From Escherichia coli (GTDB lineage Bacteria > Pseudomonadota > Gammaproteobacteria > Enterobacterales > Enterobacteriaceae): 64,000 nucleotides of DNA. Shown here in pieces: positions 21,001 to 24,000 of the stretch (its first letter is position 1; each line of letters begins with the position of its first letter). Position numbers: made by a program. Location: the NCBI RefSeq assembly GCF_017348835.2, contig NZ_CP072317.1; one strand, 5' to 3'.

Positions 21001-24000
21001 ACTATCTGCGCCAGCTTCGAATCAAACTGGCAGTAGCTGCGCTTTTTCTGCAGACAGACACCCAGCACTTTCTTCGAACAGAACTCTCCGACACTGACGG
21101 TCAGTTTGTTGTCCTTTGCCTTTCCCAGCGCCTTTTCTTCGCTGTTGCACTTCGCCAGACCCACATCCTGACCCCAGCCACCATCCTTACAGCAGTTACT
21201 GAAGCCGGCTGCGGCCTTACGGCAGAATTTCGCCTCACCCGTGAAAGCCCTGACATCCACACCATTCAGGGCGGCAACATCCTTACCTGCGGCGGCAAGC
21301 GCAGCCAGCTGTGATACTGCTTCACCAAAATCACTGCTTTTTCCGCTCTGTGCCTTATCGCATTCACCGTCAAGGCAGAAGACATCACCACCACAGACCA
21401 TCACTTTTCCTGATGTTCTGGACTCGCAGGAGTACGTGGCGTACTCATGCAGACAGGTTCCCTCATCGGAATAAAACGCGCACTGACGTGAGGCCAGCGT
21501 ACAGGCCGGATTATCGACATATTTCTGACAGGTGCCGTTATCTGCGGACTGAGTGACATATTTATCCCGGTATGCCCAGCATGCCTGTGTGATGTTCCAG
21601 GGTTTACCTTCCATCACTCCGGTTTTCGTACCACCCGGCTCTGAACACTCAGTGCCTGTCAGCACGCCATCCGCTTTATTAAACGGACAACTCTCCACCC
21701 ACTCCACCCGGGGAACCCATTCTTTATCACGGACCTTCATCCTGAGTTTCAGCGTAAAGGTGGAAGCACCACTGACAAGCGATTCATAGACTTTCCTGTC
21801 ACCATTCCCGTGCGGGAGGCAATTACCGTTAGCAGTACAGCCACTACCGGTCAGAACCTGCCCCTGTGTCACCTGCAAACCTGTCGCCCCGGACAGGGGG
21901 TAAGTATCCGACTGCCCGTTTGCCAGGCCGACATTAAAGGTTGTATTCATGAAGGTATAACGGGAGTTCAGGAAGAAAAAAGCGGCGTATACAGACAATG
22001 ATGCACTTTCCACTGTACCGGTTACCGGAGCCGTGACACTGAACACCAGTTTCAGCCCGTTCATACTGAACCGGAACTGTGAGTGCGGTATCGTCACTTC
22101 ACGATATTCATCCGTGTATTTCCAGTCCCCGGTGATACTGGCAGTCCGTGTGCAGTACTCCTCCACCATCGTGTCCCGCTCACAGGTATAGTTTGTGAAT
22201 TCACTGCGGTTTATCTCCTGCGCACTGCACTGCTGTCCGGTATTTCCCACAATGCTGTCAGCCCGGTTCACCACATCCCTGCCGGTCTGAATGAACGGTG
22301 CATCCGGTGACAGAATGTCTTTCGGCTTGTTCATGAAGGACTCTGTGATGGTTTTTCCGGTTTCACCGGTCGCCCATTCCGTGGTGCCGTCATTTTTCAG
22401 GCCGCCATCCCCGCCGGCAGTCACGCCACCGTAATATTTTGTCTCGTCCGGATTCGCGTTATAGCTGGGGATACTCTCCTGTGGCTTAAAGCCCTGAATA
22501 CTGCCTGTACCCTGCCCCTGAATCTGACGGGCAAAATCAGAACCGGCCCGGTAATCACTGTTGCTGTCAGCCTGTGCCATGCCGGCAACCAGAGCCAGTA
22601 TCAGAGGTAAAATACGTTTCATTTCCCGGAATCTCCTTTCCCTGCCAGTAAATCATGAGCCACCTGCCGGCAGTCACCCGTGGCGGCCACTTTCTCCAGC
22701 GCCTGGCCGACCCGCAGGTTTCCCCGGATGATGTCGTATCCCTGACTGCAGAACACCACCAGTGCCGGTACACTGCGAATGCCGTACTGTGAAAACAGCG
22801 TCGGGTCGATCTGAACACCATCAGTCGCGCCGTCTTTCACCAGGGACAGCACGGCTTCAGCGGTGGTCTTCAGGTCATTGTTCACCATGCCCCGCAGTGT
22901 GGCGGGTATACCGTAGTGCCGGGTTTCGCCCAGCATCCGTTTCAGCCCCTCTTCGGGAATGGAAAACGACACAAAATACAGGGCACCCTGCCGGGGTTTC
23001 CCGTCCTGCGAAGCCTGCTGTTTACGAACCAGCTCATCCAGAAAATGGTTATCTGAACGCTGAAGGGGGTTTTCCAGCACCTGTTTCTCCGCCCAGGCTT
23101 TCAGCTGATGGTCAGGTTTCTCTCGCAGTTGTCTGCTTAAATTTTCCTGCTGCTTCAGGAACTGGCGGTTTTCAGTTGTGTTCACATTTTCTGAAGCATG
23201 AACAGCAAGATGCATCCCTGCTGTCAGAGCAAAAAGTGCAAATATTTTCCGGTTCATGATATTTCTCACTTTCTGCTATTTACAGGCATGAACTCATCAG
23301 AAAAAAGATAATTGAGAAAAACAGCCACAAACGCACATGTAAATGTCACCTTCAGATATAATCTGACAAGTGTCACTTGTTCTGATATATCTGCGTTCTT
23401 CCATTCATGAATAATTTCAGCGAGAAAACTGTCAGGTGCAAAATAAAATAATATAACGGGCACTATTACAAGACCAAAAGGAAATAATTTTAATGTTCTG
23501 CTTATCAGCCTGAGCAGTACAGCACTTATTTTCCTGAGGTGCTGAATATATTTACTGTCCATTGTTGCCATTTTCATTTCCTCTTATTCATTAAAATGAT
23601 TTACAGGAATACACAGTTACGTTTACGCCACATCAGGTAGCCGAAGTTTTTCTTTGTGTTGGGCGGATTTTTTCCCGTCTCCCAGCGCATCACACTGCGC
23701 CCGAACGGATGGCACTGTCCGCTGTCCGGATACATATTCACCATCTGATAACGCCAGCGTTCTTTAGGCAGGATTGGGGACGGATATTCATTACAGACGG
23801 CGTTATTTTTCCCGATGGTTTCCATAATCATGCCCTGACGGTGTAGTTTGAACGCCATGCGTTCACTGACCAGCAGGGAGGACTGCAACGGACTGGACTC
23901 ATTACTCACCCAGCCATTGAACGGGTACATACTGCCCTGCGAACCGGCACACCAGAACAGAACATCGAGAGGCATATTAAAGGCGCTGGCAATGGCATCT

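What the first reader, a model, noticed from the sequence alone, without database searches (positions are those of the whole stretch)
23266..23577. Extra small membrane-protein gene between traU and trbC
A 103-aa hydrophobic ORF is inserted between traU and trbC, and its stop overlaps the trbC start. It is not part of the canonical F order as I recall it, and its function is unknown.
Basis: inference. Interest (0 to 1): 0.35.

Follow-up and report, generated by a model that had tools for sequence, protein, structure and literature searches.

The report
Uncharacterised small membrane gene ygeA
The small gene between traU and trbC is a real, already-annotated but never-studied accessory gene (placeholder name ygeA) that encodes a two-helix inner-membrane protein found only inside plasmid DNA-transfer gene clusters; about half of F-like plasmids, including F, lack it, so it is interesting only to specialists.

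Summary
On the minus strand, 23266..23577 is an open frame of 103 codons, more likely 101 from the second ATG at 23571. It lies between traU (23601..24593) and trbC (22619..23257). The window is about 99.5-100% identical to plasmid R100, where the gene is annotated as a hypothetical protein (WP_000224416.1). UniRef and one paper call it YgeA/ygeA, and a pSLT-type record calls its homologue OrfF. F has no such gene: only 8 nt separate traU from trbC.

It is not a trb gene under another name. It matches no Pfam, NCBIfam, PADLOC, PHROG or PDB family, and no other protein encoded in the window.

It is a genuine coding gene:
- A chance open frame occurs in about 2.5e-4 of shuffles.
- The frame stays intact across alleles with dS above 1, and dN/dS is 0.2-0.5.
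- The predicted protein is an N-in/C-in helical hairpin with a conserved FYFxP...W periplasmic loop.

New here:
- The family is small and was found only in conjugation loci: F-like plasmids, the IncX1/X5 backbone (overlapping a periplasmic nuclease gene) and other P-type loci.
- It is one of the most divergent loci of the tra operon (45% identity next to a 100% identical TraU).

Function remains untested. My best guess is a dispensable inner-membrane accessory of the mating apparatus. A conflict or specificity role is the main rival.

The parts
23266..23571 (-). ygeA coding sequence, 101 aa from the second ATG. An alternative first ATG at 23577 gives 103 aa. The stop codon TGA is at 23266-23268.
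   Evidence: ORF. RefSeq CDS WP_000224416.1 in R100 is 100% identical. Chance open frame in 5 of 20000 shuffles. Homologues with E down to 1e-57. dN/dS 0.23-0.5 across deep pairs.
23578..23585 (-). Shine-Dalgarno-like AAGAGGAA. Its GAGG core is 2 nt from the first ATG and 8 nt from the second, which favours the 101-aa product.
   Evidence: Sequence read directly. Homologues keep AGAGG(A) 7-10 nt before their starts.
23488..23571 (-). N-terminal basic amphipathic segment, residues 1-28 (6 K/R against 1 D/E). Predicted to be cytoplasmic.
   Evidence: Charge counts across 19 family members. AlphaFold helix 5-44.
23434..23487 (-). Transmembrane helix 1, residues 29-46 (LFPFGLVIVPVILFYFAP). It is flanked by the near-invariant P31 and P46, and its periplasmic end carries the FYF motif.
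   Evidence: Hydropathy. Conservation.
23353..23433 (-). Acidic loop, residues 47-73, predicted to be periplasmic. It holds the short helix 47-59, the invariant W57 and the L-x-R-L-Y-L-K motif.
23302..23352 (-). Transmembrane helix 2, residues 74-90, followed by a short C-terminal tail that is neutral in R100 (2 K/R, 2 D/E) and net positive in most other family members.
23195..23600 (-). Segment that replaces the 8-nt traU-trbC spacer and the trbC signal-peptide codons of F. It comprises ygeA plus the R100-type TrbC signal peptide (MNRKIFALFALTAGMHLAVHA), and it forms a low-GC island (GC about 0.33-0.42 against 0.50-0.60 in the flanks).
   Evidence: Alignment with F. Composition. TrbC N-termini.
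23601..24593 (-). traU, the upstream neighbour. No promoter-like or terminator-like site lies between it and ygeA.
22619..23257 (-). trbC, the downstream neighbour, starting at the ATG at 23257 (212 aa). The GTG at 23269 that overlaps the ygeA stop is probably only an ORF-finder start.

Best explanation
SHOWN. The ORF is a real protein-coding gene of the R100-type tra operon, with the placeholder name ygeA.
- It lies on the same strand as traU and trbC, with 29 nt upstream and 8 nt downstream, its own strong ribosome-binding site, and no promoter-like or terminator-like site around it. It should therefore be made from the long tra transcript together with the pilus-assembly genes.
- The product is about 101 aa, with a basic N-terminus, two hydrophobic helices and an acidic 27-residue loop. 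The charge distribution across the family predicts both termini in the cytoplasm and the loop in the periplasm.
- The family is small: 47 clusters among 1.84 billion representative proteins.
- Wherever the context could be read it sits inside conjugative transfer loci, apart from one short IS-flanked contig. In several F-like lineages it lies directly after traU. In IncX1/IncX5 plasmids it follows the coupling-protein, Cag12 and KikA genes and overlaps a periplasmic thermonuclease gene. It also occurs in other P-type loci.
- It is dispensable for transfer as such. F and about half of the F-like plasmids of E. coli join traU directly to trbC.

INFERRED. YgeA is a non-essential inner-membrane accessory of the mating apparatus. 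It probably acts in the donor envelope, using its conserved periplasmic loop (FYFxP[D/E]...W...L-x-R-L-Y-L-K) to bind a periplasmic or inner-membrane component that F-type and P/X-type systems share, or a host envelope protein. That would tune assembly, stability or the envelope cost of the machine rather than build it. The partner and the effect are unknown.

The confidence given (0.45) is for the inferred role. The shown part I hold at about 0.9.
For: - Gene reality.
- Operon embedding.
- Topology and fold. In 17 of 19 members the N-terminus is net positive; the loop is net negative in 16 and neutral in 3.
- Conserved loop residues: (W57 invariant; P31, P46 and FYF near-invariant).
- Restriction to transfer loci: F-like; IncX5; IncX1; P-type locus with TrbH/TrbI, coupling protein and a TraF-like peptidase; VirB11/Cag12/adhesin locus.
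- No homologue in 50,697 phage records. No defence-system or phage-family match.
- Dispensability: F lacks it. Of 2523 complete E. coli genomes that carry a traU 3' end, 1318 have the F-type junction and 815 have R100-type ygeA.
- About 47% of traU-bearing PLSDB plasmids carry some allele: 2029 of 4351 records.
Against: - There is no experimental datum on expression, localisation or phenotype. No paper in the searchable library says more than the name.
- Gene position is circumstantial. Tra operons also carry passengers, such as an HNH endonuclease between trbC and traN in some plasmids.
- The locus evolves unlike an assembly factor. It is 45% identical between plasmids whose TraU is 100% and TraW 99% identical, with dS of 1.2 against 0.06.
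- It shows presence/absence polymorphism and a foreign base composition: GC3 of 0.31 against 0.60-0.72 in the neighbours. Those traits fit conflict or specificity genes better.
- Constraint is only moderate: dN/dS 0.2-0.5, and about 0.8-1.9 among close alleles, based on very few substitutions.
Confidence: 0.45

Rival explanations
1. YgeA is an allele-specific conflict or specificity determinant, not an assembly helper. Examples would be a second inner-membrane exclusion or immunity factor that blocks incoming DNA from related plasmids, pilus-phage genomes or a rival secretion machine, or a partner-specific factor that sets compatibility between mating systems.
For: - In a gene-by-gene comparison of R100 with p801063-FII, ygeA (45%) is among the four or five least-conserved tra genes. 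The others are traS (22%), traJ (26%), trbD (46%, but its annotated length differs: 106 against 63 aa) and traY (48%). traS, traJ and traY are known specificity genes. The immediate neighbour traU is 100% identical.
- Synonymous divergence is about 20 times that of traU, which indicates old alleles shuffled by recombination.
- The locus shows presence/absence polymorphism.
- In the three fully compared plasmids with R100-type ygeA (R100 itself, pEC14_114 and pRHBSTW-00670_2), traS was also R100-type, even though trbA and trbF between them differed in pRHBSTW-00670_2.
- From general knowledge, small two-helix inner-membrane proteins such as T4 Imm are classic exclusion factors.
Against: - The population test shows only partial association with traS. 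About 56-71% of E. coli records with R100-type ygeA also match the R100 traS 3' end. In the spread sample, 6 of 60 rows carried the full R100-type traS 3' end without ygeA. Physical linkage alone can explain that.
- There is no homology to TraS, to any PADLOC model or to any phage protein.
- From general knowledge, derepressed R1 and R100 hosts remain sensitive to F-specific phages. That argues against a general anti-pilus-phage role.
- High divergence can also reflect weak constraint.
Confidence: 0.22
2. The ORF matters mainly in cis. Its translation delivers ribosomes to the weakly signalled trbC start (or, in IncX, to the nuclease gene), or the AT-rich island acts as an H-NS-type silencing site inside the operon. 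On this view the peptide itself has little function.
For: - The ORF is tightly packed against, or overlaps, the next gene in several lineages: an 8-nt gap in R100, a 16-nt overlap in pSLT, an ATGA overlap with the nuclease gene in IncX1 and in a soil contig, and an 8-nt overlap in OZ039654.
- The R100-type trbC signal-peptide codons always travel with the ORF.
- The low-GC island is shared by all alleles.
Against: - Specific residues and the two-helix architecture are conserved between IncF and IncX members at only 26-36% identity. A pure spacer or coupling device would not need that.
- dN/dS is below 0.5 at saturated dS.
- In p801063-FII the ORF is followed by a 62-nt gap and a different gene.
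- F expresses trbC without it.
Confidence: 0.1
3. It is a decaying or functionless hitch-hiker: a remnant of foreign low-GC DNA that persists only because it is harmless.
For: - Foreign base composition.
- Absence from about half of related plasmids.
- dN/dS near 1 among very close alleles.
- Truncated, internally deleted or frameshifted variants are on record, for example P0005, P0006, P0011 and P0023.
Against: - The frame stays open at about 100 codons in AT-rich DNA across lineages with dS above 1, including across two classes of mating system.
- W57 is invariant and there are conserved motifs.
- The intact form dominates: 874 of 882 E. coli records cover at least 80% of the gene.
Confidence: 0.08
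4. It is a known tra/trb gene (TrbE, TrbA, ArtA, TrbD, TrbF, TrbJ, TraL and so on) that has been displaced or renamed.
For: Its size and two-helix layout resemble TrbE (86 aa, two hydrophobic segments, also low GC).
Against: - The family HMM hits only itself among all window ORFs of 40 aa or more (E = 3.4e-42; next best 0.48).
- hhalign probability is 2% against TrbE and 0.5% against F ArtA.
- All the named genes are present at their usual places in R100.
- There is no Pfam or NCBIfam hit.
Confidence: 0.02

Closest known systems
TrbE of F/R100 (and the other non-essential small trb products)
   Same: It is a small protein (86 aa) with two hydrophobic helices, encoded inside the same block of pilus-assembly genes (window 20488..20748, -). 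It has low GC (0.41) relative to its neighbours. From general knowledge it is dispensable for transfer and its function is unknown.
   Different: There is no detectable sequence relationship. TrbE is present in F and is well conserved between R100 and other F-like E. coli plasmids (92-98%). YgeA is absent from F and is 45-57% identical among E. coli plasmids.
TraS, the inner-membrane entry-exclusion protein of F-like plasmids
   Same: It is an inner-membrane protein encoded in the tra operon, with extreme allelic divergence between otherwise near-identical plasmids (22% against 45% for ygeA). R100-type alleles of the two genes co-occurred in all three fully compared plasmids.
   Different: There is no homology. 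TraS sits after traG rather than after traU, and it is larger (161-173 aa). The association in the population is only partial. No exclusion phenotype has been tested for YgeA.
Small inner-membrane superinfection-exclusion proteins of phages (e.g. T4 Imm, HK97 gp15). This is an analogy from general knowledge, not a test.
   Same: About 80-100 aa, two membrane helices, 'moron'-like foreign composition, embedded in a late operon, variable presence.
   Different: There is no sequence or structural match, and no homologue in phage genomes. The context is a plasmid transfer operon.
VirB3/TraL-type small membrane subunits of type IV secretion systems
   Same: About 100 aa, a hairpin of two membrane helices, encoded in type IV secretion loci of both F and P types.
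   Different: TraL is separately present in R100 and is unrelated by HMM. The YgeA helices are separated by a 27-residue conserved loop. YgeA is dispensable, whereas from general knowledge VirB3/TraL is essential.

Membership tests
YgeA/OrfF family (uncharacterised; no Pfam or NCBIfam model) | Significant sequence similarity to the family profile | tested here: met
   phmmer E down to 1e-57. The profile search found 47 clusters at E of 1e-3 or better. The family HMM scores the window ORF at E = 3.4e-42. The exact 103-aa sequence is named YgeA in UniRef.
YgeA/OrfF family (uncharacterised; no Pfam or NCBIfam model) | Two hydrophobic helices around a conserved FYFxP[D/E]...W...LxRLYLK loop, with a basic N-terminus | tested here: met
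YgeA/OrfF family (uncharacterised; no Pfam or NCBIfam model) | Location inside a conjugative type IV secretion locus (directly after traU in F-like plasmids) | tested here: met
   (F-like). (IncX and P-type).
Named F-plasmid tra/trb genes (TrbE, TrbA, ArtA, TrbD, TrbF, TrbJ, TrbI, TraL, TraQ ...) | Sequence homology to one of them | tested here: not met
   hmmsearch against all window ORFs: next best E = 0.48. hhalign against TrbE gave 2% probability and against ArtA 0.5%.
Named F-plasmid tra/trb genes (TrbE, TrbA, ArtA, TrbD, TrbF, TrbJ, TrbI, TraL, TraQ ...) | Presence in plasmid F at the corresponding position | tested here: not met
   In F, traU ends 8 nt before trbC. tblastn of YgeA against the F tra region found no hit.
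TraS-type entry exclusion protein | Homology to TraS and a position immediately after traG | tested here: not met
TraS-type entry exclusion protein | Allele-specific hypervariability between closely related plasmids | tested here: met
   45% identity beside a 100% identical TraU; dS 1.2 against 0.06.
TraS-type entry exclusion protein | Reduces plasmid entry when expressed in recipients | not testable with these tools
   This needs mating assays with ygeA expressed in recipients.
Class II holin / pinholin-like proteins | Two membrane helices with N-in/C-in topology | tested here: inconclusive
   The topology is predicted from charge bias only. The Met-Lys-Met start resembles a dual-start motif but is not conserved in homologues.
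Class II holin / pinholin-like proteins | Match to a holin family, or adjacency to an endolysin or lysis cassette | tested here: not met
   No Pfam or PHROG holin match. No phage homologue. The neighbours are traU and trbC.
Known anti-phage defence systems (PADLOC-DB) | Match to a defence-system protein model | tested here: not met
   No families at E of 1 or better for four family members.

The most novel reading that the evidence does not exclude
YgeA-family proteins are a previously unrecognised class of allele-specific inner-membrane conflict or specificity factors. They are shared by IncF and IncX conjugative plasmids, exchanged as a cassette at a recombination hot spot just after traU, and act against incoming DNA, pilus phages or rival mating machines, or set partner compatibility.
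Probability: 0.15. Interest if true: 0.6.

Novelty: already known. Interest (0 to 1): 0.3.

Why it matters
F-like and IncX plasmids are major carriers of antibiotic-resistance genes in Enterobacterales. In E. coli alone, 815 of 5426 complete genomes carry this exact allele group. The gene has sat in reference annotations for decades without a function.

Three facts from this analysis make it testable. The family occurs in two different classes of mating machine. It is dispensable. And it is as divergent as the known specificity genes. A single in-frame deletion, an allele swap or expression in recipients would show whether it tunes pilus assembly, lowers the envelope cost of the machine, or mediates competition between plasmids.

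If it turns out to be only one more silent accessory protein, the practical gain is a cleaner annotation and a marker for typing tra-operon lineages.

Tried and rejected
- **Curated family searches.** Pfam, NCBIfam, PADLOC and PHROGs gave nothing significant.
- **Structure.** Foldseek of the AlphaFold model against the PDB gave no match at E of 0.001 or better. The profile against PDB sequences returned only VMA21 at E = 0.43, which is not significant.
- **Paralogy with other proteins.** Comparison with TrbE, ArtA and every other window ORF was negative.
- **Origin of the F TrbC signal peptide.** I tested whether it derives from ygeA by an internal deletion. The local alignment was no better than shuffles (117 of 500 reached the observed score), so this is rejected.
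- **Flanking 12-nt direct repeat.** ATTTACAGGCAT at 23278 and ATTTACAGGAAT at 23599 lie 321 bp apart. This could be an insertion or deletion scar, but it is a single short pair, partly explained by coding sequence, so I treat it as probable chance.
- **Co-variation with traS.** It looked perfect in the fully compared plasmids but was only partial in the population. Truncated tra regions and chimeric traS alleles also confound the test, so it is inconclusive.
- **Promoter and terminator scan.** No sites around the ORF beyond what shuffles give.
- **Rfam.** No RNA family in the region.
- **Phage homologues.** None.
- **Literature.** Six full-text searches found only the placeholder name. One search was wasted because 'traU' matched 'trauma'. 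Anthony et al. 1999 (PMC94017) is not held.
- **Holin idea.** The Met-Lys-Met start prompted it, but the motif is not conserved and there is no lysis context, so it is rejected.
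Full report
**1. What is there**

The region 23266..23577 holds an open frame on the minus strand, 103 codons from the first ATG. 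It lies between traU (23601..24593, -) and trbC.

The window is a close relative of plasmid R100. It is collinear with R100 over window 1..41963 at 99.5-99.99% identity. The 651 bases around the ORF are 100% identical to R100 and to many other IncFII plasmids.

RefSeq annotates the ORF in R100 as the hypothetical protein WP_000224416.1, 101 aa, starting at the second ATG. I favour that start. The Shine-Dalgarno sequence AAGAGGAA abuts the first ATG, with its GAGG core 2 nt upstream. The same core lies 8 nt before the second ATG.

The ATG at 23257 gives the 212-aa TrbC seen in F and in all homologues, and it lies 8 nt after the ygeA stop.

**2. Is it more than chance?**

- The ORF has 35% GC. 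Only 5 of 20000 shuffles of the same bases keep 103 codons open, and the other five frames carry 1-11 stops.
- Intact homologues of 97-114 aa exist in lineages that differ from R100 by dS above 1. Their dN/dS is 0.23-0.5.

It is therefore a real coding gene under moderate constraint. Among very close alleles dN/dS is near 1, but that rests on fewer than 10 substitutions.

**3. The protein**

- Hydropathy gives two membrane-spanning segments, at about residues 29-46 and 74-90.
- AlphaFold, with a shallow alignment, gives three helices (5-44, 47-59, 62-90) at mean pLDDT 78.6.
- In 19 family members the N-terminal segment is net positive in 17. The loop is net negative in 16 and neutral in 3. The tail is mostly positive.
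- This predicts N-in/C-in with a periplasmic loop of about 27 residues.
- The most conserved positions are P31, F42-Y43-F44, P46, the invariant W57, and L-x-R-L-Y-L-K before helix 2. They mark the periplasmic face.

**4. Surroundings and comparison with F**

In F, the traU stop and the trbC start are 8 nt apart. Relative to F, R100 carries a replaced segment. It runs from just after the traU stop to the end of the TrbC signal peptide, and homology resumes at ...A|SENVN. The F-specific 71 nt show no significant similarity to the R100 segment, so the direction of the event cannot be read from the sequence.

The gene sits directly after traU in pSLT-type plasmids (OrfF, 25-33% identity), in F33-type IncFII plasmids (45%) and in an IncFIA/FIB/FIC plasmid (50-57%). 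All of these have the R100-like TrbC signal peptide. An old presence with loss in the F lineage is therefore at least as likely as an insertion.

No promoter-like or terminator-like site flanks the ORF on its strand, so it should be co-transcribed with the tra operon.

**5. Prevalence**

- Of 5426 complete E. coli genomes, 2523 carry a traU 3' end.
- 1318 of these have the F-type direct junction, and 815 have R100-type ygeA at 95% nucleotide identity or more.
- In PLSDB, 2029 records encode some allele, against 4351 that match the traU/trbC flanks.

**6. Names and literature**

- UniRef names the exact 103-aa sequence YgeA (Q6SJ10).
- One paper uses ygeA as a landmark in pEC958 and pC15-1a (PMC3203889).
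- One GenBank record calls the pSLT homologue OrfF.
- Other names, such as 'conjugative transfer protein' and 'uncharacterized membrane protein', are generic.
- No searchable paper reports a function.

This plasmid ygeA shares only its name with the chromosomal E. coli ygeA (general knowledge).

**7. Not a known trb gene**

- There is no Pfam, NCBIfam, PADLOC or PHROG match and no PDB match by sequence or fold.
- hhalign against TrbE and F ArtA is null.
- A 19-member family HMM hits only this ORF among all window ORFs.

**8. The family elsewhere (new here)**

An exhaustive profile search found only 47 clusters among 1.84 billion representatives. Where the context could be read, it was a transfer locus, apart from one short IS-flanked contig:

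- **IncX5** plasmid pKPC_CAV1492: coupling protein, Cag12, hypothetical, homologue, thermonuclease, DUF6012, topB.
- **IncX1** plasmids, 45 records: VirB8-11, coupling protein, Cag12, KikA/TrbM, hypothetical, homologue, then a signal-peptide-bearing thermonuclease whose start overlaps the homologue's stop (ATGA).
- **A P-type locus:** TrbH, TrbI, coupling protein, TraF-like peptidase, then the homologue.
- **Two metagenomic loci,** where it directly follows a YadA-like trimeric adhesin gene next to VirB11/Cag12 or precedes an SNase gene.

No phage genome encodes a homologue. The family is thus specific to conjugation loci across two mating-pair-formation classes.

**9. Evolutionary behaviour (new here)**

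Between R100 and p801063-FII, TraU is 100% identical, TraW 99% and TrbI 98%. YgeA is 45% identical. Synonymous divergence is 1.2 for ygeA against 0.056 for traU.

Over 34 tra genes compared between these two plasmids, only traS (22%) and traJ (26%) are more divergent. trbD (46%, with different annotated lengths) and traY (48%) are comparable. A tblastn matrix over six plasmids gives the same picture.

Base composition is foreign. GC3 is 0.31, against 0.60-0.72 in traW, traU, trbC and traN. The locus therefore behaves as an old, recombining cassette at a sharp boundary after the traU stop.

I tested whether ygeA alleles track traS alleles. In the three fully compared plasmids with R100-type ygeA (R100, pEC14_114, pRHBSTW-00670_2) they did. 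In the population, only about 56-71% of ygeA records also match the R100 traS 3' end. R100-type traS also occurs without ygeA. Linkage is enough to explain this.

**10. Mechanism**

*Shown:* it is a real gene, embedded in the operon, encoding a predicted N-in/C-in hairpin with a conserved periplasmic loop. It is restricted to conjugation loci, dispensable and hypervariable.

*Inferred, best guess (about 0.45):* it is a non-essential inner-membrane accessory of the mating apparatus. It acts through its periplasmic loop on a component common to F-type and P/X-type systems or on a host envelope protein.

*Rivals:*
- an allele-specific conflict or specificity factor (0.22), which fits the divergence pattern best;
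- a mainly cis-acting translational-coupling or silencing element (0.10);
- a functionless hitch-hiker (0.08);
- a renamed known gene (0.02).

None can be settled without experiments. The decisive ones are listed separately.

**11. Verdict**

The gene is already annotated and named in public records, so it is not a discovery. Its function is truly unknown. The cross-system distribution and the hypervariability shown here make it a modestly interesting target for specialists.

Noticed in passing
window 29031-29546 (-), between traR (29500..29721) and traC (25602..28232): The window has one copy of an ORF of about 157-171 aa. R100 has two tandem paralogous copies (137 aa and 157 aa), so the window is about 400 bp shorter there. 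pEC14_114 also has a single copy. The window is therefore an R100 relative, not R100 itself.
   Followed up: partly
window 20772-22622 (-), traN: traN is intact in the window (616 aa). The R100 reference record has a stop at codon 301, where the window has Glu. That is the only difference between the two translations, and it probably explains why traN is missing from the R100 gene table.
   Followed up: partly
window 20488-20748 (-), trbE: trbE is another small two-helix membrane-protein gene with low GC (0.41; GC3 0.40) inside the GC-rich pilus-assembly block. It is unrelated to ygeA by sequence but similar in layout.
   Followed up: partly
L003 2860-3381 and 4043-4862; L005 2829-3281 and 3944-4762: Other F-like plasmids carry further unannotated cargo in the same interval. 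A 150-173-aa ORF with no Pfam match lies between the ygeA-like gene and trbC. A 123-aa ORF and an HNH endonuclease lie between trbC and traN. One database protein (P0053, 259 aa) is a fusion of the ygeA-like ORF with the 173-aa ORF.
   Followed up: partly
L019 6971-7794 (IncX1 pTy004_02); L012 420-1243; window about 440-900 (-): In IncX and in a soil contig, the ygeA homologue overlaps the start of a signal-peptide-bearing thermonuclease (SNase) gene. R100-type plasmids also carry a thermonuclease-family gene, but it lies far away, downstream of finO.
   Followed up: partly
L018 1606-3860; L012 1-779: In two metagenomic type IV secretion loci, the ygeA homologue directly follows a YadA-like trimeric autotransporter adhesin gene. 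That adhesin may stabilise mating pairs, as traN (two genes downstream of ygeA in R100) does in F-like plasmids.
   Followed up: no
window 23278-23289 and 23599-23610: A 12-nt direct repeat (ATTTACAGGCAT / ATTTACAGGAAT), 321 bp apart, brackets almost exactly the segment that F lacks. One copy spans the traU stop and the other lies in the last codons of ygeA. It may be a recombination scar or chance.
   Followed up: partly
window 1067-1250, 6181-6257, 15648-15733, 35732-35841, 39836-40012, 47342-47443: Rfam finds the antisense RNAs described from IncFII plasmid pHK01 (AS-pc02, AS-traI, AS-traG, AS-pc01), as well as FinP with the traJ 5' UTR, and sok. None lies near ygeA.
   Followed up: no
window 24590-25336 (-), traW: The mechanical ORF call for traW (248 aa from a GTG) is 38 codons longer than the annotated 210-aa TraW, which starts at the ATG at 25222. 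This is the same kind of upstream-start artefact as the trbC GTG.
   Followed up: no
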